From Vicingaceae bacterium (GTDB lineage Bacteria; Bacteroidota; Bacteroidia; Flavobacteriales_E; Vicingaceae): DNA of 64,000 bases. The stretch is from assembly GCA_018402765.1 (NCBI GenBank), contig JAGYIE010000005.1, positions 17,082-81,081 on the forward strand, read 5' to 3'. A program made the translations under genes and the position numbers. The notes under the pieces are model-generated. The model was not told the origin of the DNA and ran no database searches. It saw only the letters and a list, made by a program, of their open reading frames with translations. Shown piece by piece: positions 5,777-22,093 of this stretch (position 1 is its first letter; each line of letters begins with the position of its first letter).

Positions 5777-6187
5777 TTAACGTATTTCAGTTCCTTCGTT
5801 GATATAAAAAGGAAACACAATATTGTCCCTTACATTATTGGAGTGTATTTCATAATCAATATGCACACTAATCACACCATCAAGAATATTAGATTTAACT
5901 GTACTAACATCATGCACTATAATACGAGGCTCAAATGCTCGTAATCCTTGTTTTATTTCAAAAGAAAGCCTGCCAAGCAAACCATTATTGGTTTTATCAA
6001 ACTGATAATCATGAATGATACATCCAAAATCAGATCGCATGATACGCTCTCCTATATGCGTTTGGAAAAATAAGGATAAACTTTGTCTAATATCCTCATC
6101 TTTACTTACCATAATTATTTCTGCATTCTCTTTATCAAAGGTTGGAGGGAAGCCCCACCCTTTGCCTAAAAATGATTTTTCATCCAT
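5777..6187 (-). CDS. GPW/gp25 family baseplate wedge protein (Afp9-like)
   Basis: FLGKGWGFPPTF...GERIMRSDFGC...FEPRI...NIVFPFY. Confidence 0.93.
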   Translation of the reverse strand: MDEKSFLGKGWGFPPTFDKENAEIIMVSKDEDIRQSLSLFFQTHIGERIMRSDFGCIIHDYQFDKTNNGLLGRLSFEIKQGLRAFEPRIIVHDVSTVKSNILDGVISVHIDYEIHSNNVRDNIVFPFYINEGTEIR

Positions 6188-7999: not shown

Positions 8000-8694
8000 T
8001 AGTATTTCTTTTTAATTGGAGGGACTTCTAAACTGCTTCCTTTTTTTAATCGTCTGAAAGAACTTAGATTATTTACTTCAGCCAGTTTAAGATAGTATTT
8101 TTTGTTATGGTAATACTTTTCGCTAAGGCTAACTATAGAATCACCTTCTTTTACAATTGGCAATTTGGTTATATCAGGACTTTGAAAAAGTTTTTGTCCA
8201 TCAAATTCTAGTTCTACTACCGTAATAGAAACTTCTGCGCGTAGCGGAACTCCATCCGAATTAAAAAAAGTATAAGTGTAATTAAAGCCTTCCACACTCC
8301 CAAAAACATTAAGTGTCCCCATTCCCCAATTTATCATTACAAAAGGAGGTCTGTGAGTAGAATCTACGGGTATTACAGTTAATTTTTCTAGCTTGGAAAT
8401 AGAAGACGATACAGAACCCATATCAGCTGCAGATACACCATCTGGTTCAAATGGTATAGCACCTGTATTATCTATAGTAAATTTAAATTGAACCCTTCTT
8501 CTAACAAAGGTAATAGCTCTACTAGTAATGGATGAGCCTTCTGCATTTACCTCCTCTTCAGCTTCTTGCTCAGTTCTTCCTACTTCAAAAGAAATATCAG
8601 AAGGATTTAATTGCAAAGTGTAGCTACCCAACTCTCCCATTGATCCGCCGCTGTCTGATTCATATCCTGTAATTTCTAAGCTATTTATATTCAT
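7999..8694 (-). CDS. CIS tube-initiator/hub protein with C-terminal LysM-like domain (Afp7-like)
   Basis: LQLNPSDI; HRPPFVMINWG; FFNSDGVPLRAEV; C-terminal VKEGDSIVSLSEKYY...LAEVNNL. Confidence 0.88.
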   Translation of the reverse strand: MNINSLEITGYESDSGGSMGELGSYTLQLNPSDISFEVGRTEQEAEEEVNAEGSSITSRAITFVRRRVQFKFTIDNTGAIPFEPDGVSAADMGSVSSSISKLEKLTVIPVDSTHRPPFVMINWGMGTLNVFGSVEGFNYTYTFFNSDGVPLRAEVSITVVELEFDGQKLFQSPDITKLPIVKEGDSIVSLSEKYYHNKKYYLKLAEVNNLSSFRRLKKGSSLEVPPIKKKY

Positions 8695-8696
8695 AA

Positions 8697-8903
8697 TTAG
8701 TAGCTTAGTTTATCGTTTAATCTGGATAATACTTCGTTCACACATTCAGTAATAAGTGCTCTTTTTTCAGATTCACTTAAGCCTACTTTGGATTTATTTA
8801 CTTTGGAATTTGCTTCAATTAATTTAATAATATCTTCTTCACTTGCGCTACTATTACCATTTACTTTTCCTTTAATCACCAATTCTTTTATTACTACAGC
8901 CAT
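8697..8903 (-). CDS. DUF5908-like small eCIS protein (Afp6-like)
   Basis: MAVVIKELVIKGKV...LITECVNEVLSRL; size and position between tube 2 and LysM protein. Confidence 0.8.
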   Translation of the reverse strand: MAVVIKELVIKGKVNGNSSASEEDIIKLIEANSKVNKSKVGLSESEKRALITECVNEVLSRLNDKLSY

Positions 8904-8917
8904 AATCTAAAAGATGT

Positions 8918-9436
8918 CTAATTATTAAAATATTGATTAAAATGGGTGTAAGTAAGTTTCAAACGTTCCACTGCAATTTCAGACTTATCAGCATTAAATG
9001 CACCTATTTCTAATCCTTTTGGGTAGCAATTAAAAAACGACCAAGCCATTATTATTTGTTCTTGGTTATTTTCATTATTCTCCATTAAAAACACGTTTAC
9101 AGTTTTTAATGTTACTTGATAGCTAAATGAGTCGTTGGTTAATAAGTCATTAACCCATGTTGCCATGGGTGATTCTCTTTTTATTAACCCTCTAGAAAGC
9201 ACTAAGTCTGAATAGGTTGTAGTTCCTGGTAAGTGATATTGTCTGTTATTGCTGCCAGCATCTGTTATAGCGCTCGTATTTAGGTCTGCACTTATCCCTG
9301 AAATAGATTGGAAAAATGATTCATCAGGATCAAAGAAGATACTAGATAGTGGCCCATCTAAACCTACTAGTTGGTTAGTCGATGTTACCTTAAACTTAAA
9401 ACCCAATGCTGGGTAATCATTTTTATCGATATTCAT
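8918..9436 (-). CDS. Phage tail tube gp19-like protein 2 (Afp5-like)
   Basis: YPALGFKFKV...FQSISGIS...YSDLVLSRGL...AWSFFNCYPK...AVERLKLTY; ATG at 9436 preferred over track TTG at 9445. Confidence 0.9.
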   Translation of the reverse strand: MNIDKNDYPALGFKFKVTSTNQLVGLDGPLSSIFFDPDESFFQSISGISADLNTSAITDAGSNNRQYHLPGTTTYSDLVLSRGLIKRESPMATWVNDLLTNDSFSYQVTLKTVNVFLMENNENNQEQIIMAWSFFNCYPKGLEIGAFNADKSEIAVERLKLTYTHFNQYFNN

Positions 9437-9489
9437 AGATAGCAATAATTTTCAACTACTATAGAAGTGTTGAGAATAATAGTAGTAGT

Positions 9490-9539
9490 AAAAAAACAAT
9501 TATCCACTGTATCATTGTAAATGCTACAGCGAATAATTG
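9490..9539 (-). terminator. Intrinsic terminator after the major tube gene
   Basis: mRNA CAAUUAUUCGCUGUAgCAUU-uac-AAUGaUACAGUGGAUAAUUG-UUUUUUU: 19 bp (2 G.U, 1 mismatch), triloop, U7 tail. Confidence 0.75.
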
Positions 9540-9560
9540 CTATCTTAATGAGTGTTTAAT

Positions 9561-10031
9561 TTATGCTACTTCTGAGGTCATTCCTTCATGAGCTAGGACC
9601 ATTGTTTCGATTCCTGCTTCTGATGATTGAGAATTCATATCAGTTGGTGTAACTTTTTGTGGAAAAGCATTTGTTAGGGTCCACGTCATTCTTGGAGTAG
9701 CTGTTTCGTCTAATAAACGAATAACTACTGTCAAACGCTCATAAGTGTTTAATGAAATTTTTGAAATCCAATCAAAGAATTGGTTATCATCAGCAAATAC
9801 CCCTTTTTTAAGAGTTACATCCCCGTATTTCATTAATCCGGGCATCTTAATGGGTGTATGATTAGGACTATTTCCGTGTCTGTATTCGATTACTTCAGTT
9901 TCTACATCTAATCCACTAACTTCCTGAAAAGGTAAGTCTGTAAAATCGCCAATATCTACTGAAAAATAAAACTTTGGTAAAGGCCAAAACTGATCTTGTT
10001 CTGCACCTGTTCCTGCTGTTGGTAATGCCAT
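9561..10031 (-). CDS. Major tail tube protein, gp19 family (Afp1-like)
   Basis: WPLPKFYFSV...FQEVSGLDVETEVIEYRHG...KMPGLMKYGDVTLKKG. Confidence 0.95.
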   Translation of the reverse strand: MALPTAGTGAEQDQFWPLPKFYFSVDIGDFTDLPFQEVSGLDVETEVIEYRHGNSPNHTPIKMPGLMKYGDVTLKKGVFADDNQFFDWISKISLNTYERLTVVIRLLDETATPRMTWTLTNAFPQKVTPTDMNSQSSEAGIETMVLAHEGMTSEVA

Positions 10032-10065
10032 TTTTATCTAGTTTTTTTGATTTATATAGGAGAAG

Positions 10066-11568
10066 TTATGATTTTTGTTGCTGTTGTTCAAACGTAATTA
10101 CGATGAATTCAGCAGGTCTTGTAATCGCTACTTTAACTGTCATTTTTAAAACGCCATCTAATATATCGTTTGCTGTCATAGTAGAACCAAGTCCAATTTG
10201 AATTTCATAAGCATCATCAGGAGAGTTTCCTGCTAATAAACCTGATTGCCATTGGTTACTTAAGAAATTAGCCACTGTAGCTCTTAGTGTGGACCAAGTA
10301 GTAGAGTTATTAGGAGCAAAAACAAATGCCTCTGCAGCAAATTTGATACTTTGCTCAAGGAATGTCATTGTTCTTCTTACGCTAATGTATCGATAATCTT
10401 GAGAATTTCCGTCTAGTGTTCTTGCACCCCATACCAAAACTCCTTTACCTGCGAAGCCTCTAATAGCATTAATTGCTTTACCATTTAATGGTAAGTTAAG
10501 TTCCTCTTGGTTGTCGTTATTGATATCTACTGAAGGCGATACAACTGCTCCTAAGCTGATGTTAGCCGGAGATTTCGCTACACTTACAGAGTTGTCGCAC
10601 ATGGTATAGGCACCTGCCAATGCAGCACTCGGAGGCATTAAATTAATCATGCTCCCCATATCCTCTATAATTGCATTTATCGCAGGGCTCACTACCTTAA
10701 GAGTAGATTGAAGAGATTTAATTGCATCTGCATCAGTTATGTCTGCTATCTTGGCAATTTCTTTTTTAATTCCTTCAGCTCTTGCTTCAGTAATTACACC
10801 ATTAGCCAGGTTCTTGTCTACTTCTGTATTTAAAACCTCAATCAATACCTCTTTATTATCGATTCGTGTAAAATCTAAATCAGCAGATTTTACAATGTTA
10901 GTCTGTATGTATGGGTAATAAGCAGCTCCCCACATTAGAAAGTTAGAACCTACGCCTTCTCTAAATTTATCAACGATATCATCTTCATCAAAGGTACGCT
11001 CTTTATCACCATCATAAACATCTAGTATAGCAAAACGATTCTTCATTTTATAACCACAATGACTTAACATTTGTGCCTGAACAGCGAAGCAATCGTCAGC
11101 TGAAAGTAAAACTGCATCAGGAACTACCAAAAGCGTAGGCTCTAGTGATTTCTCTAAGGCTGCTATACCACCATTGTTTTTACTGGTTAATTGATCCCCA
11201 TTAATTTCCTCTCCGTATAAGCCTACAGAAACGATATAGCAATCGGCTCCACCATTTGCGTAAAATAAACGAATCGAATTAAAGAGCATGTATCTGCTAG
11301 CATCCAAGAAACTCAGTTGAAATCCTTGAGCACTTGCTTCGTTTGCTTCGATAATAAATTTTGTATCCGGGGCACCACCGAATAATTCTACAAATTGACC
11401 AAAGGAAGTAACTTTTGTAGGTTTGTTGATTAATGATTTTGACCCTCTCGCAGCTTTGGCCGTATAACCTACAAATGCAGGCAAGGCTGTTTGCACGGGT
11501 ACCACTGTTGAACCGAAGGAACTTTTTTCTTCGATATACACACCGGGAGTCGCTAATGAAGTAGACAT
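10066..11568 (-). CDS. Contractile tail sheath protein (Afp2/3/4-like)
   Basis: TPGVYIEE...TALPAFVGYT; VWGARTLDGNSQDYRYISVRRT; RPAEFIVITF. Confidence 0.96.
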   Translation of the reverse strand: MSTSLATPGVYIEEKSSFGSTVVPVQTALPAFVGYTAKAARGSKSLINKPTKVTSFGQFVELFGGAPDTKFIIEANEASAQGFQLSFLDASRYMLFNSIRLFYANGGADCYIVSVGLYGEEINGDQLTSKNNGGIAALEKSLEPTLLVVPDAVLLSADDCFAVQAQMLSHCGYKMKNRFAILDVYDGDKERTFDEDDIVDKFREGVGSNFLMWGAAYYPYIQTNIVKSADLDFTRIDNKEVLIEVLNTEVDKNLANGVITEARAEGIKKEIAKIADITDADAIKSLQSTLKVVSPAINAIIEDMGSMINLMPPSAALAGAYTMCDNSVSVAKSPANISLGAVVSPSVDINNDNQEELNLPLNGKAINAIRGFAGKGVLVWGARTLDGNSQDYRYISVRRTMTFLEQSIKFAAEAFVFAPNNSTTWSTLRATVANFLSNQWQSGLLAGNSPDDAYEIQIGLGSTMTANDILDGVLKMTVKVAITRPAEFIVITFEQQQQKS

Positions 11569-11710: not shown

Positions 11711-12544
11711 TTAAATATTTATATAAATATCCGTTATGAATGTATCGTGAATATTGCTGAAACTTAAATTATTAATTGATGGCTGAGGAATATATTTTTT
11801 ATAATTATGAAAGGTTTGATCTTTCTTTTTTAGGTAGTATTTGAAGTCTTGCTGTTCTTTTACCATTATTGTGTTGGGTGAAATAGCAGCATAGACGTTT
11901 TTACCATTTGACAATATCCTTTTTTGAAAAGAAACCTCTATCGCCTTTTTCCCTTCTTCTTCTATTACGTAATCAGCGATTTCTTTTTCGTCTTGAATAT
12001 TGGTAAGATTATAACGAACTATTGATTGCCTTGCTTTGAACCTAATGGAATAGTTTACGGATTCCTTGAGCCTTTTGTCAATTAACTCTCCAAAAAACTC
12101 GTTATTCTTGTTTAGGTTCAATGTTATCTTGCCTATTATACCTTTCCCAAAATACGCATCTGTTTCACAATCTTTATCGGTATAATCTTTAGAGTGAAGA
12201 TTGGTGTTTGAAAAATCGTTTGTAAATAACAATCTTTTATCTGTACTGTAAGTTATATCTGTGTAATTTAAGAAATAGATATCGTCTACAAATAGGTAGA
12301 AATCTAGCTGCACTTCATTGTTAAAGCTAGCACTATTACAGCGCTCTATATTGTCACCTAATAAAACAATACCTGCAGGAATAGCTTTAATTTTTAGTTG
12401 ATAATCTTTTAGTAGTTCCGCAGTTTCCATTGATGGTATTATTCGTATTTTTTCTATAATCCCACTTGTGAAGTAATTGTGATATACAGTAACGGATATT
12501 AACTGGCGGTGATTACTACTATATTTAAAACTATTTTGAAGCAT
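11711..12544 (-). CDS. Hypothetical eCIS-associated protein next to the cap gene (possible cap adaptor)
   Basis: 277 aa; LISVTVYHNYF start; between DUF4255 and sheath; function inferred from position only. Confidence 0.6.
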   Translation of the reverse strand: MLQNSFKYSSNHRQLISVTVYHNYFTSGIIEKIRIIPSMETAELLKDYQLKIKAIPAGIVLLGDNIERCNSASFNNEVQLDFYLFVDDIYFLNYTDITYSTDKRLLFTNDFSNTNLHSKDYTDKDCETDAYFGKGIIGKITLNLNKNNEFFGELIDKRLKESVNYSIRFKARQSIVRYNLTNIQDEKEIADYVIEEEGKKAIEVSFQKRILSNGKNVYAAISPNTIMVKEQQDFKYYLKKKDQTFHNYKKYIPQPSINNLSFSNIHDTFITDIYINI

Positions 12545-12555
12545 AATTTTATCTA

Positions 12556-13092
12556 TTAACCTATTACCAATGCTATATCTTCACTAAAGGTAGTCGAATT
12601 GAAATAAATTTGTTTGAATTTATAAGCTACTGAAGGTATATAGTTTGCTCCAATATTCCCCCATAGTTTACTAATTTCTTCAATAGAAATATTTAACATT
12701 TCTGCATTTATCTTATTCACTCCTGAAGGCATGCCTGGTGTATTTGAACTCGTAAATGTATTGTTCGCCTGAAAAAATTCGATTACAATAGAGATGTATT
12801 TCAATGCCTCTAAATAATTGAAGTTTGGGAAATGGGCGGAAAACATTAAGTGCAGGTTTACTTTAACTGTTGGGTTTAATCCTGCATTCGCATTAAAATT
12901 TGCATTCTTTGAAACCTTTTCTTCTTCAATGTTTAATAAGAATATTGTAATTTTGTTTTCAATTTCTTGATTTAAATTACCTTTTAAATCTACTAAGCTG
13001 CTAACAATTACTGCATCTTCATTTAGTGAAAGCTTGTTTTTTATGTGCTCGTTTAGTTTATTACCGATTGATGTAATTACGTTATGAATCAT
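12556..13092 (-). CDS. DUF4255 cap/tail-terminator protein (Afp16/Pvc16-like)
   Basis: VIVSSLVD...ITIFLLNIEEE...LHLMFSAHF...YLEALKYIS.VIEFFQ...ISKLWGNIGANYIPSVAYK. Confidence 0.88.
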   Translation of the reverse strand: MIHNVITSIGNKLNEHIKNKLSLNEDAVIVSSLVDLKGNLNQEIENKITIFLLNIEEEKVSKNANFNANAGLNPTVKVNLHLMFSAHFPNFNYLEALKYISIVIEFFQANNTFTSSNTPGMPSGVNKINAEMLNISIEEISKLWGNIGANYIPSVAYKFKQIYFNSTTFSEDIALVIG

Positions 13093-13103
13093 TGGTGATT
13101 ATT

Positions 13104-13337
13104 TTAATTCATTAATTTGAATATGCCTTTCACTATTATTCTTACTATGTAAATAGATATAAGTGAAATTAACCAACTTATAGTATAAAGTTGAATTGTT
13201 AATATTTTTTCTATTTCATTCGGCCGGTTAGTCGCAGATGTTAAGTTAATCATCCATAAAACCACGAATGCAATAACTAATGAAAGTAGAACACTAATTA
13301 CAAACCAAAAAAGCTCTCTGATAATTATCTTTTTCAT
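13104..13337 (-). CDS. Small two-TM membrane protein
   Basis: 77 aa with two hydrophobic stretches; 10-11 nt gaps to neighbours in the same operon. Confidence 0.7.
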   Translation of the reverse strand: MKKIIIRELFWFVISVLLSLVIAFVVLWMINLTSATNRPNEIEKILTIQLYTISWLISLISIYIVRIIVKGIFKLMN

Positions 13338-13347
13338 AAGTAGTTTT

Positions 13348-15120
13348 TCAAGGTCTATCGATTGATTTTAATTTTATTTTTTGGATCAAAAATAGAACGA
13401 GCATTCCAATTGTAAATGCGATATAAATTTGCCACTCTGGTTTTATAAATAGGTGTATATATGGCAATATATTATTAAGCCCAATATATGCAAATCCTGT
13501 TAGTGGTAGAATAAAAATAATAGATACTAATAAAAAGATCCATTGATAAAGTTGTTTTTTTAGTATTGAATCTCTAATTTTCCAGTCAGTTAGTAAGTAT
13601 GTAAATCCAATGACTACAGCAATTAAAAAACATACGGTAGCTGCCATAAATAGGTTTAAATATTTGAGTAAAAATTTGCTCCATTGTAAAGGATATCCTT
13701 CAGCTTCTGCAAGAGGGTTTTTATAGATTTTAATATTGGTGGAGAACTTATTTTCGATCACATCCCATAAGTCAGTAGAGCCATTATCATAACCCAAGGC
13801 CCATATTCCAATTCCTTTTAGCTTGTTACTTATAGCATAATCATACTTTTTGTCTAAAGTGTATGCATCGTCAAACCATATTTCTTTGGTAGAGTTATCG
13901 GTGTAGGTTAGGTTATAGTAGTTAGTCATGCTATATTCATCTAAAATCGGCACGGTATTATATTCTTTGTTATCAAGTAGTAATTTTTTTACTTCGCTGT
14001 AGGTAATTCTGCGTTCTAGCTTTGACGCATTGTAGGCAGACATTCCATCTTCAGTTAATTCTCCATCCCACATAGAGCCATAGTAGGGCAGAGCTAATAC
14101 TGTTTTGTCTAGATTAATTCCTCTATCTATATAAAAGTTTAGCGTGGTTGATAGGCTAATATCTGATTCTTTAGATCGTAATGGAGCTACAGGGCCCTGT
14201 ACTTGATTTCCAGTATTGTAATCGTATCCCATTATAACCAATAAGTCGGCAGATTTTTCAAGTTCATTGATGTCAAAAATATCTCTGCTATTTACAGCCG
14301 GTAGTGTAAGTGACAAAAAGAATGACTTACCTTCTTTTTCATAAACAGCGGACAGCTGTTGATTGATGAAAGCTACAAATTGATTAAACTTTTCTCTTTT
14401 AAAATAGGAGATTGATTCAAAGTTAAGATCTATACCGTTCGCCTCTCTATTGATCAATAACGGAGTAAGTATTTCTGCTAGGGTGCTCCATCTCTCTGGG
14501 TTATCTAAAAAAATAGAGGTATTTTCTGAACCATGACAAGCTACAGTTAGCAATACTTTAGTATTGTGTGCTTTAGCTGAGTCTATCATTTCAGTGGTCT
14601 TCCATTCTTCTATCTGTTTTGGGTTTGTAAATGAGCCAGTTTTTGGGTCTATTTTATAAGAAAAGTAGGCAACTGTTGTTAATAAATTAAAAGGATACTT
14701 CCTCCATGAATCGCCCATCCAATAGGGGTGCCATCCAAACACTTCGGTTCCTTTTTGTATTGCTTTATAGGTTTTATCCTGCACTCGGTAAGCTGATTCA
14801 CTAGAGTCAAAGCTGAAATTTGTGCTTGAAATTGGTGCATCTCCTGTATTTAATGCATCATAAATATATCCGTATTTGTTTAACATACTTTTTTGAGATC
14901 TTGGAGCATATATAGAGGAGTCTACATTTGCTGTATCTTTAAGTGTGTTAAGTTTATCCAACCCAAATCCTTTCTCAATTTTACTTATAGTACTTTTAAA
15001 TAGTCTGGTTTCCGTCTCTGTTTTTCTGATACTACTTTTAAGTTTTACTGCCTCCCTGCACGATATAAGCAGCAATACAATAGATAGCATGAAAATTAGA
15101 AAGTGAACTTTTTTACTCAT
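13348..15120 (-). CDS. GH18 family glycoside hydrolase with lipoprotein-like N-terminus and C-terminal TM helices
   Basis: VFGWHPYW; ANGIDLNFE; VIMGYDY; VLALPYYG; KYDYA.SNKLKGIGIWALGYD; lipobox LLISC; about three hydrophobic helices at the C-terminus. Confidence 0.88.
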   Translation of the reverse strand: MSKKVHFLIFMLSIVLLLISCREAVKLKSSIRKTETETRLFKSTISKIEKGFGLDKLNTLKDTANVDSSIYAPRSQKSMLNKYGYIYDALNTGDAPISSTNFSFDSSESAYRVQDKTYKAIQKGTEVFGWHPYWMGDSWRKYPFNLLTTVAYFSYKIDPKTGSFTNPKQIEEWKTTEMIDSAKAHNTKVLLTVACHGSENTSIFLDNPERWSTLAEILTPLLINREANGIDLNFESISYFKREKFNQFVAFINQQLSAVYEKEGKSFFLSLTLPAVNSRDIFDINELEKSADLLVIMGYDYNTGNQVQGPVAPLRSKESDISLSTTLNFYIDRGINLDKTVLALPYYGSMWDGELTEDGMSAYNASKLERRITYSEVKKLLLDNKEYNTVPILDEYSMTNYYNLTYTDNSTKEIWFDDAYTLDKKYDYAISNKLKGIGIWALGYDNGSTDLWDVIENKFSTNIKIYKNPLAEAEGYPLQWSKFLLKYLNLFMAATVCFLIAVVIGFTYLLTDWKIRDSILKKQLYQWIFLLVSIIFILPLTGFAYIGLNNILPYIHLFIKPEWQIYIAFTIGMLVLFLIQKIKLKSIDRP

Positions 15121-16402
15121 TTTTTTTTAATTGAATTTTTATCGACTTATTGATAATTGGCACTAATTTTTCCACCATTTTATTTGTTTCAACAGTGCTA
15201 ACTGTTACTAGTCTATAGTGAATGGGAAAATCATAAATGGTCGATTTATTTATCAGCCTTACTTCCGCTTTTTTACTCGGTCTTGCTATTAATTCGTCCG
15301 ATTTGTAAAAAGCAAAGTTTCTATTGAAATGCGCCGTTCTAGCATCTAAACTTTGGTTAAGAATGGAAATGGATAAATCATTACCAATATAGGTTGGCAG
15401 AGTGAAGCTTGGTTTAGTTTCAAAGAGCTCTTCTTTGGCATACGTAATTAACGCTTCTCCATCATCATTTGCATAGCTATCATACATTTCTTTTTCGGTA
15501 CTAGAAGTTCCAAACCAGTATCCCCAACCTAATAAACGATCTGTAGATGAGATAACTATTGGAAAAGTGAACGAACTATTTTGTGTAATATTTAGAATAG
15601 GTTCTAGTCTAAAAGCTTTAGTGTCTTCTATTTTGTAAATGGTATCCGTTATTACTTCATTCACCATTTTTTTTACAAAAGTGGTGTCATTTATAAATTC
15701 AGTAGATGTTCCTTTATGGGTTATAGGTTTTTTAATAATTAGTGTAAAATTAGAAGCAAAAACACCTTTGTTTCTTAACAATCCTGAATTAGAAATATTC
15801 AAGATTAGCTTATTGTCAGTCATTACCCTAAAAGCGCCATCTACTTTCTTCTTGCGTTTAATCTTCATTAGGCGTATTCTTACGGTTTCTCCCTCAATAA
15901 ATTCAATTGTTTTGATCTTATGCTTACCATTTTGCATATTAAAAATAATTTCATCACCTGCTATTACGTCATATGTAAAAGTGGTAACACTGCCATCAGT
16001 TGGTGTCTTTATATTTAAGTAAGAAATGACTACCGTATCAATTGTTTTATTTTGCACTAAATAATCAAGTAGAAAAGTTTCGGATTCATCTATTTTAACT
16101 TCTTTTTCTGTTTTTAAAATATTCCTGAGGCTATCTATGTAAGTTACCGAGTAAAGAGTCTCAATACTTGATTCATTATTAAGGGATTTCTTTTTTACTA
16201 AAAGTTGTTTAGTCTCTTTGTTTAGGTTATTTATGGAGTTTGATACATCTTTTGCGACCAGTTCTTTGTTTAGATTATTAATAGTTGTTTTATTAGAATT
16301 TACCAGCTTTGTAAGATCTGTTACTACTTTAGATGATTTACAACCAAATAGAAATATCAAAAGGAACAAAAATACAGTACTATTTACTTTTTTGGTTATC
16401 AT
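15113..16402 (-). CDS. Hypothetical lipoprotein
   Basis: 429 aa; lipobox FIFLFGC; N-terminal coiled-coil-like stretch; no family recognised. Confidence 0.7.
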   Translation of the reverse strand: MITKKVNSTVFLFLLIFLFGCKSSKVVTDLTKLVNSNKTTINNLNKELVAKDVSNSINNLNKETKQLLVKKKSLNNESSIETLYSVTYIDSLRNILKTEKEVKIDESETFLLDYLVQNKTIDTVVISYLNIKTPTDGSVTTFTYDVIAGDEIIFNMQNGKHKIKTIEFIEGETVRIRLMKIKRKKKVDGAFRVMTDNKLILNISNSGLLRNKGVFASNFTLIIKKPITHKGTSTEFINDTTFVKKMVNEVITDTIYKIEDTKAFRLEPILNITQNSSFTFPIVISSTDRLLGWGYWFGTSSTEKEMYDSYANDDGEALITYAKEELFETKPSFTLPTYIGNDLSISILNQSLDARTAHFNRNFAFYKSDELIARPSKKAEVRLINKSTIYDFPIHYRLVTVSTVETNKMVEKLVPIINKSIKIQLKKNE

Positions 16403-17512
16403 TTAATGTGTTGATTTAGCGTTTACTTCCTTTTGCATTCTTTCATATCTGGCATAAGCTTCTTTTTTAAGTGTCTGTTTGATTTCTGAAGTTTTACTTT
16501 CTAGTTCCATTTCCAAAGAAGCTTCTTTTAGCTTACTATTTTTGATTCGTTCATAATCGAAGTTATCTTTTGCTTTTTGCAAATTCATTTCATAAATTAA
16601 TTCGCTTTCTTCCAGTAGGCTTTCATAGGGACCTTTTGAAGAAAGTAATTTGGTAAGAATAGGAGCTATTTCAATCATTATAAAAATAGAAAGAATAAGT
16701 AAAGAGGCTAGTTTATCAATTTGATTAAGTGCTTTAATTCGATCAAAAAAACCTGACTTAAATTCTTGTGACATCGTTAGTAATTCGGCGTTCATAAGCG
16801 CCTCAGTATTAATTTGCTCATTGCTTAGTGCGTTAAGTAAGGAGTCTGTTTGCACTTTTTGTGTTTGAACCTCTGCTGCATACGTCTCGTATTTCTCTTG
16901 CCTGCTCTCACATTCCGACCCTCTGCCTTTCCTTCCTGTTCCGCAAGTTCCATCACATTCACACTTGAAGTCACTGTAATACGCATCTCGAATAACTATT
17001 TTATCTTCTAACTTTTTTATTAATAAATCTTTACGATTTGTTAGGTCATCAATTTTATAGGAGTATTTTATTTTTACATCGTCTACTAATGTTATTCGTT
17101 CCTTTTCTAAGTATGTATTAATTTCATTTTTGAATAGTTTTATTTCTATTGGTTTAGAAATTACTAATGCAATTAATACTGCAATTATCAATCGAGGAAT
17201 CGCCTTTAAAAATTCTCCCTTTTTACTATTGACTGACCGCAGAGTAGAAACAATATAACGATCTAAGTTAAAAATCATACCGGCCCAAATTAATGATGCT
17301 CCTATTACGATAATTAATGAATCAAATATTAGTGAAAAGGCGAAAAATGCTGATAGAGAGGATAATAGTGTAGTGAAAACGATGGTAAGACCGATACTAC
17401 TATATTTATTAAGCTCGTATTGCGGACATTTAAGAATCATTTTGACACTTACGCCCGAGCAGAATAATAAAAATCGAGTAATTTTAGATAAATTATTTAC
17501 TTCTTCAATCAT
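16403..17512 (-). CDS. DUF4407 family membrane protein
   Basis: FLLFCSG...KCPQYELNKYSSIG.TIVFT; LDRYIVS; PRLIIAVLIALVISKPIEIKLF; Cys cluster CECDGTCGTGRKG.GSEC. Confidence 0.8.
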   Translation of the reverse strand: MIEEVNNLSKITRFLLFCSGVSVKMILKCPQYELNKYSSIGLTIVFTTLLSSLSAFFAFSLIFDSLIIVIGASLIWAGMIFNLDRYIVSTLRSVNSKKGEFLKAIPRLIIAVLIALVISKPIEIKLFKNEINTYLEKERITLVDDVKIKYSYKIDDLTNRKDLLIKKLEDKIVIRDAYYSDFKCECDGTCGTGRKGRGSECESRQEKYETYAAEVQTQKVQTDSLLNALSNEQINTEALMNAELLTMSQEFKSGFFDRIKALNQIDKLASLLILSIFIMIEIAPILTKLLSSKGPYESLLEESELIYEMNLQKAKDNFDYERIKNSKLKEASLEMELESKTSEIKQTLKKEAYARYERMQKEVNAKSTH

Positions 17513-18569
17513 TCTTATAAATTGTATTGGTTACACTTCTATAAAAATTTTTAAAAAGAGTACGCACATTGTTAGCCCTTTCTGAAGCAGATTTTAGTTC
17601 TTCTTTTTTTCTAATTTCCGCTATGTTTTCGAAAGTGAAAAGAGTTATTGCATGAGCAGTTTTTGCAACTAGTGTAGTAAATTCAAAGGAAAATTCAGTG
17701 TCTTCGGTAGCTATAAAATCGTGCTTACCCCTCGATGGGAGTGTGCCTAATGTCTGTTCGACTAACTTTCCTGCAGATTCAGACTCCCATTTGATACGCA
17801 CTTGTTGGTTTAAGTAAACTCCAAATTTCAGGTTTTGCTCATTTACAGACGATAGCTCAATATAATCTTCTAAAATTGGATCATAAACTTCTACTAAAAA
17901 GAGAATGGTGTTTTCAGAAAATACTTTTATAAATAATGAGCGTCTGACCTCTGCGTTGCTGTTTTTAGCTATTATTAGATAATGCTGGCTTTTGTTAAGC
18001 GCAACAATTTTGCTGCCTGAAATATCCACTTCGCCTAACTCAGGAGAAATACTCACTGAATGGGCATTGGCAGCTTTCCAATTAATTTTCACTTTTTCGC
18101 CTCTGTTTATAAATGGTTTATCAACAGTGAAATCAAGATTTATTTCGCCTGAGAAGAGACTTATCTTTTCAGATTTCTTTAAAAGTCGATTAAACAAATC
18201 AACTTTAGAGCGTATTCGTGTCTCTTTTGATTCCGCCTTATTTTCTGTTTCAGCGCTAATTAAATATCCATTGTCTAGTACACAAAATGATTGCTCGACT
18301 TCATTATTGTTAGACTGATTGAGCCAATAAATAACCACACCACTATCAATTAATCGTTTGATAAGATTTGCTATTTTTATTGATTTTTTATCTGAATTTG
18401 AGCATATTATAATTTCTATTTGACAGTCTTTATTGGCTAGAGCTAACAATTTTGTCGCCAAAAAAAGCAAGTCGGTTTCTTCTGTACAAAGCTTTAAGGA
18501 ATATGCTACACGTCCTATTTCTTTCTCTATTTCGGTTGCTATATGTTGTGTATAATAGGTTCTTAACAT
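17505..18569 (-). CDS. Degenerate PLD-like domain plus two Ig-like repeats
   Basis: N-terminus resembles PLDc_2 with VEQSFCVLD where MHNKFCVID is expected; repeats GEKVKINWKAANAHSVSISPELGEVDISGS and NQQVRIKWESESAGKLVEQTLGTLPSRGK. Confidence 0.55.
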   Translation of the reverse strand: MLRTYYTQHIATEIEKEIGRVAYSLKLCTEETDLLFLATKLLALANKDCQIEIIICSNSDKKSIKIANLIKRLIDSGVVIYWLNQSNNNEVEQSFCVLDNGYLISAETENKAESKETRIRSKVDLFNRLLKKSEKISLFSGEINLDFTVDKPFINRGEKVKINWKAANAHSVSISPELGEVDISGSKIVALNKSQHYLIIAKNSNAEVRRSLFIKVFSENTILFLVEVYDPILEDYIELSSVNEQNLKFGVYLNQQVRIKWESESAGKLVEQTLGTLPSRGKHDFIATEDTEFSFEFTTLVAKTAHAITLFTFENIAEIRKKEELKSASERANNVRTLFKNFYRSVTNTIYKND

Positions 18570-18830: not shown

Positions 18831-21695
18831 TTGTATAAATTGAGTAATAACCATAAATCAAATATTCCTTTTGTTGGGCTTCAGCCTTTTAGTTTAGAAG
18901 ACCATCAGTATTTTTATGGGCGAGAGAGAGAAGTAGAATCGATACTCTCTATTCTACAATCCAATAAATTTGTATGCATAACAGGTCCTGAGGGCTCAGG
19001 TAAAAGTTCATTAATTAATGCTGGTTTATTGCACCGTTTGCAAACAGGCTTTAATGGTATAGAAGGCAATAAGTGGTCCGTTTGTAAATTTAGACCTAGT
19101 ATTTCTCCACTTGAAAATTTTACACAGGCACTAACATTTGATGGGGTATTATCAGTTGAAAATAAGCCTAATACCACAGATTACTTAACCTATTTTGAAA
19201 TTATAAAAGAGGTCGGTGCTGATGCTTTGATGACGATATATAATGATTCCGAAATAGTTAAGAAGCACAATTTATTGGTAGTTATTGATCAGATAGAAGA
19301 TATTTTTTACATGAATGATTACTTTAGTTCTTTTAGTTCTAAAGATGATGATATTCTATTTGATATCGTAAACAAAACTGCTCGGATAAAGAACATCCCC
19401 ATTTACTTCATACTATCTATTCGCACTAACTATTTAAGTAGTCTTTCTCAGTACAATGGATTACAGGAACTTATAAGCAGGTCGCAATACGCTATTCAAA
19501 ACATAAGTTTAGTAAGTGTCAACCAAATGATTGTTGAGGGTTTTAATTCAGTGAATGTCCAGTTTAGTAATTTGTTAGTAGAATCTCTTTATGAAGAGCT
19601 TCTAGAAGATACCTCTCTATTGTCAAACCTTCAGTTTCTTTTGTATTCTTTGTATATGCATCACTTAGCCTTAAAAAGCAGTCAGCAGGTTATAATCCAT
19701 GATTTTGATAATTATACATCCTTAAAAGAGGTGGTGAGTTTTTCATTTTTTGATTTCTTTGAATCTTTAGAAGATTCCGAGAAAGAGAAGTTAGAGTTGC
19801 TAATTCGAGCATTTTTCAACTCTAAAAATCAATTAAATACCAATTATAGAATATCGATTAATGATTTAGTAAAAATATCTGGTTTAGATATTATTTACAT
19901 AAAACAAATTTATTCTACTTTACGATTAGATTTTCAATCATTATTTAATGCTATCCCTGCTATTTCTACTCAGATTGATACTAATGGTAATGATTTTAAA
20001 TGGAAAGGTTCAGATTTGTTACAAATTAGCTATGTTTCTTATTTTTCTCACCCAACCTTTCAAAATTGGGTGCGGAATGAAGCTACTTACTATTGGCGTT
20101 TTAAGGAATATGCCAATTCGTTAAAAAAATATAAAAATGGAGAAATTGGTTTACTCACTTCGCCTCAGTTAGATATTGCAGTAGAGTGGAAGAACAACAA
20201 GTATATTTCTTCTGGTTGGTCTTCGAAATATAATTTACCCTTTTCTGATGTGGTTGACTTTATACTTGAAAGTAAGGCTAAACAGGAGAAAGACGCAGCT
20301 CATGCAGCTGCAAGGCAAGCAAGAGAGCGCATCAAAGAAAAAATTCAACGGCGACTTTATATTAGCTTTACCATTATAGCTTTCTCTCTAATGCTTTTTG
20401 CTGGCTATAAATGGATCGATGCCGACAGATCTAAAGAAGAGGCCAATATGGATAAATTAATTGCACAAGATCTCATGAGAGAGAATCAGATTATTAGTCA
20501 ATTAATAAAGATTAAAGCACAAGCTCCTTCTATGTTAGTGCAATTAAAAAATACTGGCAACGATACAAGTCAATTAAAAATCAATAGGCAAATACAAGAA
20601 GTAGTTAGAACGGAGTTATTGTTTGATAGTCTAAATTCTGTTTATAAAACTTCTTATGTTACAGATGATTGGATGCACGACTTGAATCAAACTGCACTGT
20701 CTCTTCTAGAAGGCAAAAAAGATTACACAGAAACGTCTATGCTTATAGGTGATCTAAAAACGTATCCTATTTTGGATTTTAGTTTATTTAATAATCAGCT
20801 AATCGCATTTATTGGAGAAGATAATAAATTGTTTATAAAAGATTTAAAAAGGAATAAACAAGCACAACTAATTAATCACTCTACTTTATTTAAAGGCCAA
20901 ATAAAACGATTAATTTTTATGGATATAGAGCATGTTTTAATCCTAACAGATCGTCATGAACTATTGATTTTATCGCTTATCACGCAGAATATACAAAGTG
21001 TTTATACCACTACGAAGGCTTCTCCTATAATTGATCTTATATACAATAAAGTAGAAGATGTTATTGTTATTGTAGAAGAAGATAAAATTAAGCTTTATGA
21101 TAGTTACAGTAATCTGCAAGTTATTGATGAATTAGGAGAACATTATACCGCTAGTTATCTTAATCAAAAATTATATGTTGCTACTAATAAGGGAATTTTC
21201 CAAGTAAATACTCAAGAAGGCATTAAGAAGGTGAATTTTGAAAAAGAGAAAAATTACAATTTTGATGGATTAACTAAACTACACTTAAAAGGAGATTATG
21301 CTTTTATTGGGTTTGATAACGGACGAGTAGAAATGTATAAGTTTAACCACGAGCAACTGGTATTAAAACATATATTCTTTTTTAATGAGCACTTTGACGC
21401 TATTACGAGTATATATTATGACGAAGTAAAAGAAGTGATGTATTCTTCAGGGATCGATAATAAAATTTTTAGATATGATTTAAGGATTAATGATGAAGAC
21501 GTAGATGAGAATTTTTCAGAGCTTAAGGGCCATAAAGGTACCGTTTGGAAAATTGATGGTTTTCAAAATACCAGAGGTCAACGAATTTTGGTTACTGCAG
21601 ATCAAACAGGCCACTTATTAACATGGTATATTGACGACATAGATATGGTAAAAGATCTTAAGGAATTAGTAGATAAACAACTTGAAAATAAATAG
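18831..21695 (+). CDS. nSTAND1-type NTPase + TM helix + WD40-like beta-propeller (Hat/HatR-like architecture)
   Basis: PFVGLQPF, FYGRERE, Walker A GPEGSGKSS, Walker B LLVVIDQIEDIF, LLTSPQLDIAVEW; TM LYISFTIIAFSLMLFAGY; WD-like EHFDAITSIYY and KGHKGTVWKID. Confidence 0.85.
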   Translation: MYKLSNNHKSNIPFVGLQPFSLEDHQYFYGREREVESILSILQSNKFVCITGPEGSGKSSLINAGLLHRLQTGFNGIEGNKWSVCKFRPSISPLENFTQALTFDGVLSVENKPNTTDYLTYFEIIKEVGADALMTIYNDSEIVKKHNLLVVIDQIEDIFYMNDYFSSFSSKDDDILFDIVNKTARIKNIPIYFILSIRTNYLSSLSQYNGLQELISRSQYAIQNISLVSVNQMIVEGFNSVNVQFSNLLVESLYEELLEDTSLLSNLQFLLYSLYMHHLALKSSQQVIIHDFDNYTSLKEVVSFSFFDFFESLEDSEKEKLELLIRAFFNSKNQLNTNYRISINDLVKISGLDIIYIKQIYSTLRLDFQSLFNAIPAISTQIDTNGNDFKWKGSDLLQISYVSYFSHPTFQNWVRNEATYYWRFKEYANSLKKYKNGEIGLLTSPQLDIAVEWKNNKYISSGWSSKYNLPFSDVVDFILESKAKQEKDAAHAAARQARERIKEKIQRRLYISFTIIAFSLMLFAGYKWIDADRSKEEANMDKLIAQDLMRENQIISQLIKIKAQAPSMLVQLKNTGNDTSQLKINRQIQEVVRTELLFDSLNSVYKTSYVTDDWMHDLNQTALSLLEGKKDYTETSMLIGDLKTYPILDFSLFNNQLIAFIGEDNKLFIKDLKRNKQAQLINHSTLFKGQIKRLIFMDIEHVLILTDRHELLILSLITQNIQSVYTTTKASPIIDLIYNKVEDVIVIVEEDKIKLYDSYSNLQVIDELGEHYTASYLNQKLYVATNKGIFQVNTQEGIKKVNFEKEKNYNFDGLTKLHLKGDYAFIGFDNGRVEMYKFNHEQLVLKHIFFFNEHFDAITSIYYDEVKEVMYSSGIDNKIFRYDLRINDEDVDENFSELKGHKGTVWKIDGFQNTRGQRILVTADQTGHLLTWYIDDIDMVKDLKELVDKQLENK

Positions 21696-21700
21696 CAGTT

Positions 21701-22093
21701 ATGGCAAATTGTGTTTGTAATGGAGCAAAGATATCCTGCAACTTTGGAGATGGTCCTCAAAGTATGGTGGTGCTTCCACTTGGGATGACGACTACTGCTA
21801 ATATAAAGGCATTAGCTGTTAATACAGATATTATCCCCTTTTTAAATATACCTAGTTTTGGTCAATGTAAATCACTAGCTAATCCAATGGTAGCATCTGC
21901 TACCGCCGCTGCACTAGGAGCGCTTACTCCTCAACCTTGTATTCCAGTTGTGATAGCTCCATGGAATCCTGCTGCACAAAAATTAAAAATTGGAAAAATA
22001 CCTGCAATTTTAGACAACAGCCAAACAATGTGTGCTTGGGCAGGTCAGATAAAGATAGATGATCCCGGACAATCTTCTATCACTGCAGTTTAA
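21701..22093 (+). CDS. DUF4280 PAAR-like spike-tip protein
   Basis: VCNGAKISCNFG...NIPSFGQCKSLANP.VASATAAALG.LTPQPCIP...CAWAGQIKI.DPGQ. Confidence 0.92.
   Translation: MANCVCNGAKISCNFGDGPQSMVVLPLGMTTTANIKALAVNTDIIPFLNIPSFGQCKSLANPMVASATAAALGALTPQPCIPVVIAPWNPAAQKLKIGKIPAILDNSQTMCAWAGQIKIDDPGQSSITAV

What the first reader, a model, noticed from the sequence alone, without database searches (positions are those of the whole stretch)
13104..18569. Five-gene envelope module co-transcribed with the CIS cap: candidate anchoring or release apparatus
Seen: the PLD-Ig, DUF4407, lipoprotein, GH18 and 2-TM genes overlap or abut (8-nt overlap, 0 gap, 8-nt overlap, 10 nt, 11 nt) and lead straight into DUF4255. 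Four of the five have TM helices or lipoboxes. Neither lipoprotein has the acidic post-Cys stretch seen in the lipoproteins at 51053 (C-DKDDDDD) and 58887 (C-EDIVDE), which in Bacteroidota is linked to surface export, so they probably stay periplasmic. No canonical holin-endolysin pair is visible. Inference: an inner-membrane/periplasmic complex that remodels the wall and tethers or exports the CIS, unlike TssJLM or the Bacteroidota TssNOPR complexes.
Basis: partly seen in the sequence, partly recalled or inferred. Interest (0 to 1): 0.85.

Follow-up and report, generated by a model that had tools for sequence, protein, structure and literature searches.

The report
Envelope module of membrane-docked injection system
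Five tightly packed membrane and cell-wall genes always travel with one lineage of phage-tail-like "nano-syringes" in marine Bacteroidota; one of them matches in architecture a Salmonella membrane protein described in 2025-26, while the other four are undescribed candidate partners for docking the syringe to the cell envelope.

Summary
Five minus-strand genes (17505-18569, 16403-17512, 15113-16402, 13348-15120, 13104-13337) abut exactly as described and run into the cap gene. Four of the five carry TM helices or lipoboxes.

The module is a dedicated accessory of this contractile injection system (CIS). All 31 related loci with enough flank carry it next to CIS core genes. In four loci it lies beside the tape-measure and ATPase genes, and in two of those it lies between them and the cap.

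The GH18 protein has the architecture of SalCis20 (Ejaz et al., Nat Commun 2026), which was proposed to tether the Salmonella CIS to the inner membrane. The window's sheath and Cis11 are closest to the SalCIS proteins.

"Remodels the wall" is weakened. The catalytic motif reads D-x-N-x-E in every Flavobacteriaceae-type ortholog, and three lineages have lost the Glu. The domain more likely binds glycan than cuts it.

The DUF4407 protein, the Ig-domain cytoplasmic protein, the beta-sandwich lipoprotein and the 77-aa hairpin are unreported as CIS parts. DUF4407 paralogs elsewhere are not CIS-linked.

My best reading is an inner-membrane/periplasmic docking or trans-envelope complex (about 0.55). 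Rivals are a firing sensor and a lysis cassette. Co-transcription could not be tested.

The parts
17505..18569 (-). g1: 354-aa cytoplasmic protein. N-terminal alpha/beta domain (degenerate PLD-like, no HKD), two tandem Ig-like domains and a long C-terminal helix. Overlaps g2 by 8 nt.
   Evidence: No TM or signal peptide. AF2 model pLDDT 77. Foldseek top hits are tandem Ig domains, E 1e-6. PLDc_2 E 4.4e-4, below cut-off, in 2 of 17 orthologs. Adjacent to g2 in all CIS-linked loci. Fast-evolving: only W164, G185 and W261 are invariant.
16403..17512 (-). g2: 369-aa DUF4407 inner-membrane protein with four TM segments. A ~144-aa loop between TM3 and TM4 (predicted periplasmic) carries the motif C-x-C-x3-C-x10-C, with all four Cys kept in all 18 CIS-linked orthologs. 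An 82-aa charged C-terminal tail is predicted cytoplasmic.
   Evidence: PF14362 E 3.6e-64. TM segments and K/R loop counts fit an N-in topology. Cys motif conserved in all 18 CIS-linked orthologs. No PDB relative by sequence. The CIS-linked sequences separate cleanly from the single non-CIS paralog clade, support 100/99.
15113..16402 (-). g3: 429-aa lipoprotein (Cys21 invariant, no acidic post-Cys stretch). A helical N-terminal linker is followed by two beta-sandwich domains. It is the fastest-evolving member of the module.
   Evidence: No Pfam, NCBIfam, PADLOC or PHROG hit. Only 9 homologous clusters by word search. A family HMM also finds the slot protein in L009-L013, L016 and L017. AF2 pLDDT 78. 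Foldseek gives only generic two-beta-sandwich matches at TM 0.15.
13348..15120 (-). g4: 590-aa protein with the SalCis20 architecture. Lipobox signal (LISC), conserved N-terminal region, periplasmic GH18-like domain with the motif NGIDLNFE (Asp to Asn two residues before the Glu), and three C-terminal TM helices.
   Evidence: PF00704 E 2.2e-30. Nearest solved relatives by single-sequence search are 4wiw and YdhD, with SleL/YaaH further down. In the profile search a chitinase (5gzu) ranks first, then YdhD, 4wiw and YaaH. D231, N233 and E235 are invariant in 6 orthologs. Motif survey. Architecture matches the published SalCis20/SalCis19.
13104..13337 (-). g5: 77-aa two-TM hairpin, predicted N-in/C-in, with conserved RELFWF...EK..T.QLY...IYI.R. 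Follows g4 by 10 nt and precedes the cap gene by 11 nt.
   Evidence: TM prediction. Present and conserved in every CIS-linked locus, even where gene callers missed it. No family hit, and no holin PHROG.
12556..13092 (-). Cap protein Cis16a (Pvc16_N/DUF4255).
   Evidence: PF14065 E 1.2e-27.
11711..12544 (-). Probable cap adaptor (Cis16b-like).
   Evidence: Only PDB hit is SalCis16b, 9r9n_C, E 2.4e-4. Always follows the cap gene.
5777..11568 (-). CIS core: sheath 10066-11568, tube 9561-10031, tube 8918-9445, CIS_tube 7999-8694, VgrG-like spike 6188-7999, gp25 5777-6187.
   Evidence: Pfam. Sheath best PDB hit is SalCis2, 9r9h, E 1e-141, ahead of AlgoCIS Alg2 at 1e-98.
2058..5774 (-). Cis11 baseplate/cage protein (1238 aa).
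   Evidence: Best PDB hit is SalCis11, 9rce_A, E 9e-78, ahead of Alg11 at 1e-62.
18831..21695 (+). Divergently transcribed nSTAND1 NTPase with one TM segment (~511-530) and a WD40 propeller. It is a conserved neighbour of the module.
   Evidence: PF20703 E 2e-43. TM segment. Detected within the fetched flank of most module-bearing loci, at varying positions.
21701..22093 (+). DUF4280 (PAAR-like) gene, 5 nt after the nSTAND gene.
   Evidence: PF14107 E 4e-29. Present in L001 and L004-L008; replaced by another gene in L009 and L010.

Best explanation
The five genes encode the envelope module of a SalCIS-like (clade Ib, T6SSiv-like) contractile injection system.

Shown:
- They form a conserved block with the cap genes, inside or at the edge of CIS clusters.
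- g2, g4 and g5 are predicted inner-membrane proteins with large periplasmic parts (g2 and g4) or none (g5).
- g3 is an exported lipoprotein and g1 is cytoplasmic.

Inferred mechanism:
- g4 (SalCis20-type: signal/lipobox, GH18-like periplasmic domain, three TM helices) and the g5 hairpin form an inner-membrane platform. Its GH18-like cleft grips peptidoglycan glycan strands and does not cut them efficiently.
- g2 (DUF4407) adds a roughly 9-nm periplasmic helical hairpin tipped by a four-Cys knot.
- The g3 lipoprotein extends the assembly toward the outer membrane.
- The cytoplasmic tails of g2 and g4, together with the Ig-domain protein g1, couple the platform to the particle. By analogy with the SalCis13/SalCis11 model this would be at the baseplate.
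- The result is a very long sheath-tube docked at a prepared envelope site, firing outward instead of being released by lysis.
- The neighbouring nSTAND1-TM-WD40 protein may gate assembly or firing.
For: 1. Linkage from the module side. All 10 distinct metagenome contexts of g3/g2 homologs (DUF4407 identity 41-88%) have the order nSTAND / g1-g2-g3-g4-g5-cap-adaptor-sheath.... So do 8 genome loci with enough flank, from Flavobacteriaceae, Chitinophagales, Algoriphagus, Marivirga, Lewinella and Salibacteraceae, plus L091 and L092.

2. Embedding. In L013 and L017 the module directly follows CIS_TMP and an AAA ATPase. In L018 and L091 it lies between those genes and the cap.

3. Linkage from the CIS side. 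14 of 16 metagenome loci with sheath identity of 62% or more and at least 7.4 kb of upstream sequence carry g1-g5. More distant CIS carry partial versions or none.

4. Operon-like spacing from g1 to the cap adaptor in nearly all loci, and no minus-strand terminator-like site.

5. g2, g4 and g5 diverge at rates like VgrG, tube and cap proteins.

6. Topology follows the positive-inside rule.

7. Published precedent. SalCis20 (PDB 9R9A) has the same architecture. SalCIS lies at the inner membrane in tomograms, and neither secretion nor particle release was detected. The window's sheath and Cis11 are closest to the SalCIS proteins.

8. Catalytic degeneration. The motif is D-x-N-x-E here and Glu is lost in L013, L016 and L017. 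Only 56 of 109 membrane-anchored relatives keep D-x-E, against 33 of 38 TM-less relatives, Fisher p = 9e-5.

9. Tape measures next to the module are 2051 to more than 3050 aa, which implies very long tubes as in SalCIS (600-700 nm).

10. An imaged but molecularly unassigned OM/periplasm/IM trans-envelope complex exists in the Aureispira T6SSiv. The module occurs in the same class, in Lewinella (L019).
Against: - There are no expression, localisation or interaction data for any of the five proteins.
- Direct homology of g4 to SalCis20 could not be shown. 9R9A was not among the 30 single-sequence hits, the 60 listed of 126 profile hits, or the hits to the TM block alone. The link rests on shared architecture and CIS lineage.
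- As published, SalCIS has none of g1, g2, g3 or g5, so these are not required for the SalCis20 function in Salmonella.
- The SalCIS anchoring model is itself a hypothesis, and orientation was unresolved in the tomograms.
- The module is tightly coupled to the cap genes, not to baseplate genes.
- Module composition varies. There are GH18-3TM-only, g5-only and duplicated GH18 versions, so the five need not form one complex.
- An Asp-to-Asn GH18 may keep low activity.
- The tape measure of the window's own cluster was not seen.
Confidence: 0.55

Rival explanations
1. Envelope sensor or firing trigger. The module, together with the nSTAND1-TM-WD40 protein, senses envelope contact or damage and signals to the cytoplasmic CIS to assemble or fire. 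This would be functionally analogous to TagQRST-PpkA of the Pseudomonas H1-T6SS. It is not mutually exclusive with docking.
For: - The non-CIS DUF4407 paralogs sit directly after BlaI-type repressor and BlaR1-like M56 sensor genes in 33-38 loci, a cell-wall-stress signalling context.
- A STAND NTPase with a periplasmic propeller accompanies the module in most module-bearing loci.
- The GH18-like domain looks like a binder, not an enzyme.
- The Aureispira authors propose signal transduction through the trans-envelope complex.
Against: - No kinase, phosphatase or other known signalling domain is present in g1-g5.
- nSTAND position and orientation vary between loci.
- The BlaR1 link concerns a different DUF4407 clade.
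- There are no functional data.
Confidence: 0.2
2. Release (lysis) cassette of an extracellular CIS. g5 acts as a class-II-like holin, g4 as a membrane-tethered glycosidase, and g2 and g3 as spanin-like inner- and outer-membrane partners that free particles from the producer cell.
For: - eCIS are thought to leave by lysis.
- g5 has holin-like size and topology.
- g4's nearest solved relatives include the peptidoglycan-active GH18 enzymes YdhD and SleL/YaaH.
- An inner-membrane coiled-coil protein next to a lipoprotein superficially recalls i- and o-spanins.
- The g4 GH18 domain hits a phage minor tail protein PHROG at E 5e-9.
Against: - No holin, endolysin or spanin family hit in Pfam, NCBIfam or PHROGs.
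- The catalytic Asp is replaced in the window and all Flavobacteriaceae-type orthologs, and the Glu is lost outright in three lineages that otherwise keep the protein highly conserved, E 1e-127 to 1e-133.
- g3 (429 aa) and g2 (4 TM) do not have spanin architecture.
- No particle release was detected for the SalCis20-bearing SalCIS.
- The module accompanies very long tape measures, whereas the short, released AlgoCIS has 23 sheath layers and its published 18-gene cluster names no such genes.
Confidence: 0.15
3. An unrelated envelope operon that merely neighbours the CIS.
For: DUF4407 and GH18 families are both common outside CIS loci.
Against: - The CIS-linked DUF4407 sequences are phylogenetically separate from the non-CIS clade.
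- The module is syntenic with CIS genes across at least four Bacteroidota orders, and in L018 and L091 it is flanked by core CIS genes on both sides.
- In the 66 non-CIS DUF4407 loci examined, no module or core CIS gene was found. The one stray match was a u245 hit in L064.
Confidence: 0.03

Closest known systems
SalCis20 (SalCis19 in the preprint) of the Salmonella enterica subsp. salamae CIS, PDB 9R9A (Ejaz et al., bioRxiv 10.1101/2025.06.01.657177; Nat Commun 2026, PMC13266070)
   Same: - N-terminal export signal, a periplasmic GH18 domain related to SleL/YdhD, and three C-terminal TM helices.
- Encoded inside a clade Ib CIS cluster.
- The window's sheath, Cis11 and cap adaptor have their best solved matches in SalCIS.
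- The authors note homologues in other clade Ib clusters.
   Different: - g4 is shorter: 590 aa, against a periplasmic domain spanning residues 44-775 in SalCis20.
- g4 has an invariant lipobox Cys and the motif D-x-N-x-E.
- g4 lies next to the cap genes and is accompanied by four further conserved genes (g1, g2, g3, g5) that are absent from the 18-gene SalCIS operon as published.
- Direct sequence similarity to 9R9A could not be demonstrated here.
Trans-envelope complex of the Aureispira T6SSiv (Lien et al., bioRxiv 10.1101/2024.01.29.577165)
   Same: - A TssJLM-independent, C6-symmetric complex with OM-associated, periplasmic and IM-associated parts, attached to a clade Ib CIS.
- The module offers an OM lipoprotein, periplasmic domains and IM proteins.
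- The module occurs in the same class, in Lewinella (L019).
   Different: The protein identity of the Aureispira complex is not given in that paper. Presence of this module in Aureispira was not tested here, so no structural correspondence is shown.
CisA of Streptomyces coelicolor (bioRxiv 10.1101/2024.06.25.600559)
   Same: An accessory membrane protein required for the function and firing of a CIS that is not a canonical T6SS. This rests on that paper's title and abstract.
   Different: Gram-positive host, a single protein, and no homology to any of the five genes.
Sporulation GH18 enzymes YdhD (3cz8), SleL (4s3j) and YaaH (4s3k)
   Same: Among the closest solved sequence relatives of the g4 GH18 domain. 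4wiw and YdhD rank first in the single-sequence search. A chitinase (5gzu) ranks first in the profile search.
   Different: These are soluble proteins with LysM or other domains, and YdhD shows I-D-F-E where g4 has L-N-F-E (alignment). g4 replaces that Asp and adds three TM helices.
T6SS membrane complexes TssJLM (T6SSi) and TssNOPQR (Bacteroidales T6SSiii)
   Same: The same proposed job: fixing a contractile machine to the envelope.
   Different: No family hit to any Tss membrane component, and different proteins and architecture.

Membership tests
SalCis20 family (CIS-associated membrane GH18-like protein) | N-terminal export signal followed by a large periplasmic domain | tested here: met
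   Hydrophobic N-terminus with lipobox LISC. S20 and C21 are invariant in 6 orthologs.
SalCis20 family (CIS-associated membrane GH18-like protein) | Periplasmic domain with a SleL-like GH18 fold | tested here: met
   PF00704 E 2.2e-30. PDB relatives include 4wiw, YdhD, SleL and YaaH.
SalCis20 family (CIS-associated membrane GH18-like protein) | Three C-terminal transmembrane helices | tested here: met
   Segments at 488-508, 527-547 and 563-582, with loop charges that fit an in/out/in arrangement. Conserved in orthologs.
SalCis20 family (CIS-associated membrane GH18-like protein) | Encoded in a clade Ib, SalCIS-like CIS cluster | tested here: met
   Sheath best hit SalCis2, E 1e-141. Cis11 best hit SalCis11, E 9e-78. 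Adaptor hits SalCis16b.
SalCis20 family (CIS-associated membrane GH18-like protein) | Direct sequence or structural similarity to PDB 9R9A | tested here: inconclusive
   9R9A was not among the 30 single-sequence hits, the 60 listed of 126 profile hits, or the hits to the TM block alone.
Catalytically competent GH18 glycosidase | D-x-x-D-x-D-x-E motif with the Asp two residues before the catalytic Glu | tested here: not met
   The motif reads N-G-I-D-L-N-F-E and N233 is invariant in 6 orthologs. Glu is lost in L013, L016 and L017. Only 56 of 109 membrane-anchored relatives keep D-x-E.
DUF4407 (PF14362) | Full-length match above Pfam's gathering score | tested here: met
   217 bits against a 31.3-bit cut-off, profile positions 4-296 of 297.
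Phospholipase D / Nuc superfamily (g1) | PLDc domain above threshold with an H-x-K-x4-D motif | tested here: not met
   20.5 bits against a 27-bit cut-off. Only 2 of 17 orthologs match. The motif position reads EQSFCVLD, and only the Asp is conserved among the close orthologs.
Phage-type lysis cassette (holin, endolysin, spanins) | Match to a holin, endolysin or spanin family, and spanin architecture (type II inner-membrane protein plus small outer-membrane lipoprotein) | tested here: not met
   No such hit in Pfam, NCBIfam or PHROGs. g2 has 4 TM segments and g3 is 429 aa.
T6SS membrane complex (TssJ/L/M or TssN/O/P/Q/R) | Homology to any Tss membrane-complex component | tested here: not met
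   No Pfam or NCBIfam hit for g1-g5 to these families.
Anti-phage defence system | Match to a PADLOC model | tested here: not met
   Only a weak PtuB hit for g1, E 1.4e-3. Nothing for g2-g5.

The most novel reading that the evidence does not exclude
The module (DUF4407 stalk protein, SalCis20-type pseudo-glycosidase, 2-TM hairpin, beta-sandwich lipoprotein and Ig-domain cytoplasmic adaptor, possibly gated by the nSTAND1-TM-WD40 protein) is the parts list of the TssJLM-independent trans-envelope complex seen by cryo-ET on T6SSiv-type machines. On this reading DUF4407 is a general periplasm-spanning envelope module that was recruited from a BlaR1-controlled cell-wall-stress context.
Probability: 0.3. 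Interest if true: 0.8.

Novelty: new variant of a known kind. Interest (0 to 1): 0.6.

Why it matters
How non-canonical contractile injection systems (clade Ib, T6SSiv-like) attach to and fire through a Gram-negative envelope is an open question. A trans-envelope complex has been imaged in Aureispira without a parts list, and the only assigned protein is SalCis20 in Salmonella.

This locus and its roughly 30 relatives show that in marine and freshwater Bacteroidota the SalCis20-type protein belongs to a larger conserved gene set. That set has a clear predicted inside/periplasm/outer-membrane division of labour.

This gives named candidates for deletion, pull-down and tomography, and cultivable carriers exist (Marivirga aurantiaca, Psychroflexus salis, Neolewinella lacunae). 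It gives DUF4407 its first functional context. It also suggests that the 'hydrolase' of this family is often a glycan-binding pseudo-enzyme, which bears on the published wall-remodelling model.

Tried and rejected
- A single-protein genome scan with g3 found nothing. An alignment-based scan was needed.
- NCBIfam, PADLOC and PHROGs gave no informative hits for g1, g2, g3 or g5.
- No paper holding 'DUF4407' deals with its function.
- Foldseek of the g3 model gave only generic double-beta-sandwich matches at TM about 0.15, so no functional lead.
- The sigma-70 scan found fewer sites than shuffles, and the Bacteroidota TAnnTTTG motif occurred at chance frequency, so no promoter could be assigned.
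- 9R9A was not among the hits listed in sequence searches of the PDB copy.
- Supplements of the SalCIS and ixotrophy papers that list gene content are not held.
- Look-ups of the window's own Cis11 and the 245-aa gene, meant to walk beyond the window edge, failed. The tape measure and ATPase of this very cluster were therefore not seen.
- No named Aureispira or Saprospira protein appeared among Lewinella-type DUF4407 homologs.
There was therefore no whole-genome census and no RNA evidence for co-transcription.
- Rejected: a defence-system reading (no PADLOC support, constant CIS synteny) and a chance-neighbour reading (synteny across orders).

Full report
**Observation.** The ORF list shows five co-directional minus-strand genes.
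- g1: 17505-18569, 354 aa.
- g2: 16403-17512, 369 aa.
- g3: 15113-16402, 429 aa.
- g4: 13348-15120, 590 aa.
- g5: 13104-13337, 77 aa.

Their junctions are -8, 0, -8, +10 and +11 nt, the last leading into the Pvc16_N (formerly DUF4255) cap gene at 12556-13092. After the cap gene come a 277-aa gene, sheath, two tube genes, CIS_tube, a VgrG-like spike, gp25 and a 1238-aa Cis11.

Pfam gives DUF4407 (E 3.6e-64) for g2 and GH18 (E 2.2e-30) for g4. It gives a sub-threshold PLDc_2 hit for g1 and nothing for g3 and g5.

My hydropathy and lipobox script finds four TM segments in g2, a lipoprotein signal in g3 (LFGC) and in g4 (LISC), three C-terminal TM segments in g4, two in g5 and none in g1.

**The module is conserved with the CIS.** g3 has only nine homologous clusters. 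Every context I fetched has the same layout, including the divergent nSTAND1-WD40 gene. The 77-aa gene is present even where gene callers skipped it.

DUF4407 homologs at 41-61% identity, including the protein found in Psychroflexus salis and one on Tara Oceans contigs, again sit in the same block.

A genome-wide pattern scan with a DUF4407 alignment returned 80 loci, and these split cleanly.
- L011-L013 and L016-L021 carry g1 and g2. All but L019 also have g4 and g5 immediately downstream, and L019 has them nearby on the opposite strand. L014 carries g1 and g2 on a truncated contig. These loci come from Flavobacteriaceae MAGs, Chitinophagales, Algoriphagus sp., Marivirga aurantiaca, Lewinella and Salibacteraceae.
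- All of these with enough flank also carry CIS genes.
- The 66 lower-scoring loci that I examined carry no module gene and no core CIS gene. The one stray match was a u245 hit in L064.

In L013 and L017 the module directly follows a 2051-2084-aa CIS tape-measure protein and an AAA ATPase. In L018 and L091 it lies between those genes and the cap, so it can be embedded within the cluster.

A maximum-likelihood tree puts all non-CIS DUF4407 in one clade (support 100/99), apart from the CIS-linked sequences.

From the CIS side, I scanned metagenomes with a sheath profile.
- 14 of 16 loci with sheath identity of 62% or more and enough upstream DNA carry g1-g5.
- At 54-56% identity there are variants: two GH18-3TM paralogs plus g5, or g1, g2, g4 and g5.
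- At 50% or less there is only a GH18-3TM gene (L131, L133, L172) or nothing (ten loci).

Intergenic spacing from g1 through the cap adaptor is typically -23 to +63 nt, with a consistently larger gap before the sheath gene. There is no minus-strand terminator-like site in the window's block. g2, g4 and g5 diverge about as fast as VgrG, tube and cap proteins, while g1 and g3 are faster.

**What the proteins are.**

*g4.* Its nearest solved relatives by single-sequence search are 4wiw and YdhD, with SleL/YaaH further down. A profile search puts a chitinase (5gzu) first, then YdhD, 4wiw and YaaH.

The literature search that started from the window sheath's best PDB hit (9r9h, E 1e-141) led to Ejaz et al.. 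SalCis19/SalCis20 of the Salmonella enterica subsp. salamae CIS is an integral membrane homodimer with a Sec signal, a SleL-like periplasmic domain and three TM helices. It was proposed to remodel peptidoglycan and, through SalCis13, to hold the baseplate at the inner membrane. The authors note homologues in other clade Ib clusters.

g4 has the same architecture. The window's Cis11 and cap adaptor also match SalCIS best. I could not show direct similarity to 9R9A.

The catalytic motif matters. Canonical GH18 enzymes have D-x-x-D-x-D-x-E, and g4 has N-G-I-D-L-N-F-E with N233 invariant in six orthologs. All 11 Flavobacteriaceae-type orthologs and three of the more distant ones have Asn at that position, and L013, L016 and L017 have lost the Glu (to R, Q and I) while otherwise remaining highly similar.

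A full HMMER search found 1358 representatives at E of 1e-30 or better. Among the best 150:
- 109 have the C-terminal TM block. Of these, 56 keep D-x-E, 40 have N-x-E, and 11 lack the Glu.
- 38 are TM-less relatives, and 33 of them keep D-x-E.
- Fisher's exact test gives p = 9e-5.

From established GH18 enzymology, the Asp next to the Glu positions the substrate's acetamido group, and its Asn mutants lose most activity. I therefore infer a glycan-binding or at best weakly active domain.

*g2.* Loop charges fit an N-in topology. A 144-aa TM3-TM4 loop lies outside and an 82-aa charged tail lies inside. The loop carries C-x-C-x3-C-x10-C, with all four Cys kept in all 18 CIS-linked orthologs. That it forms a helical hairpin of about 9 nm is my inference from its sequence character. 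It was not modelled.

*g1.* The AF2 model (pLDDT 77) has an alpha/beta domain, two Ig-like domains confirmed by Foldseek, and a long terminal helix. The PLD label is weak.

*g3.* The model (pLDDT 78) shows a helical linker and two beta-sandwich domains without a specific match. A family HMM recovers the slot protein in more distant loci, and most slot proteins have signal peptides or lipoboxes.

*g5.* It is a conserved N-in/C-in hairpin.

No holin, endolysin, spanin, Tss membrane-complex or defence family matches any of the five.

**Mechanism.** The shown facts are the CIS-dedicated synteny, the predicted compartment of each protein, the degenerate catalytic site, and the closeness to SalCIS. 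From these I infer an envelope docking or trans-envelope module.
- g4 and g5 form the inner-membrane core and grip peptidoglycan.
- g2 adds a periplasmic stalk.
- g3 reaches from the outer membrane.
- g1, with the cytoplasmic tails, links to the particle.

Very long tape measures beside the module (2051 to more than 3050 aa) fit cell-anchored machines such as SalCIS (600-700 nm). They do not fit short released particles such as AlgoCIS, which has 23 sheath layers and is never membrane-attached.

The Aureispira T6SSiv has an imaged OM/periplasm/IM complex with no proteins assigned. The module is an obvious candidate, but I could not test its presence in Aureispira.

*Rivals.*
- A sensor or trigger role. 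This is suggested by the constant nSTAND1-TM-WD40 neighbour and by the BlaI/BlaR1 context of non-CIS DUF4407 paralogs.
- A lysis or release cassette. This is disfavoured by the catalytic degeneration, the non-spanin architectures, and the lack of detected release in SalCIS.

**Comparison and novelty.** The GH18-3TM component and the idea of inner-membrane association are published (2025-26). The four partner genes, their conserved order with the cap genes, the first functional context for DUF4407, and the quantified loss of catalytic residues in the membrane-anchored family were not found in the papers I searched and read.

Earlier AI notes of this scan reached the same SalCis20 reading for other genomes. 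I found the paper independently, and I treat those notes as agreement, not as evidence.

**Limits.** There is therefore no whole-genome census, no view of this cluster's own tape measure, and no RNA evidence for co-transcription.

Noticed in passing
L022-L090 (e.g. L051:4929-6893, L047:5751-6116): The non-CIS DUF4407 paralogs of Flavobacteriaceae sit directly downstream of a BlaI-type repressor (Penicillinase_R) and a BlaR1-like M56 membrane sensor, in 33-38 of 66 loci. This suggests a cell-wall-stress regulon for this uncharacterised family.
   Followed up: partly
window 18831-21695 (+) and 21701-22093 (+): An nSTAND1 NTPase with one TM segment and a C-terminal WD40 propeller was detected within the fetched flank of most module-bearing loci, at varying position and orientation. 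The DUF4280 (PAAR-like) gene that follows it here is replaced by an unrelated 314-327-aa gene in L009 and L010.
   Followed up: partly
L017:1197-7451, L018:856-7299, L013:1410-7565, L091:1-7489: Tape-measure proteins next to the module are exceptionally long (2051, 2084, 2147 and more than 3050 aa), which implies tubes of several hundred nanometres.
   Followed up: partly
L118:4314-7570: One related CIS locus has two tandem GH18-3TM paralogs followed by the 2-TM gene and the cap gene, with no DUF4407. L114 and L117 lack g1-g4 (L117 keeps a g5-like gene). The components are therefore evolutionarily separable.
   Followed up: partly
L013:12371-14089, L016:2739-4460, L017:12327-14060: In these three lineages the GH18 catalytic Glu is replaced by Arg, Gln or Ile, while the rest of the protein stays highly conserved (E 1e-127 to 1e-133 to the window protein).
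   Followed up: yes
window 11569-11710: A 142-nt AT-rich gap separates the cap-adaptor gene from the sheath gene. A larger gap at this position (50-690 nt) recurs in almost all related loci and may hold an internal promoter or processing site for the highly expressed sheath and tube genes.
   Followed up: no
L046 and L081: Two Flavobacteriaceae-type DUF4407 loci are labelled Parvularcula sp. and Alteromonas sp. MAGs. This is probably mis-binned contigs, not horizontal transfer.
   Followed up: no
L092:4907-8551 and L019:11687-14764: Large eCIS_core (DUF4157) effector-type proteins lie immediately beside the module in two relatives.
   Followed up: no
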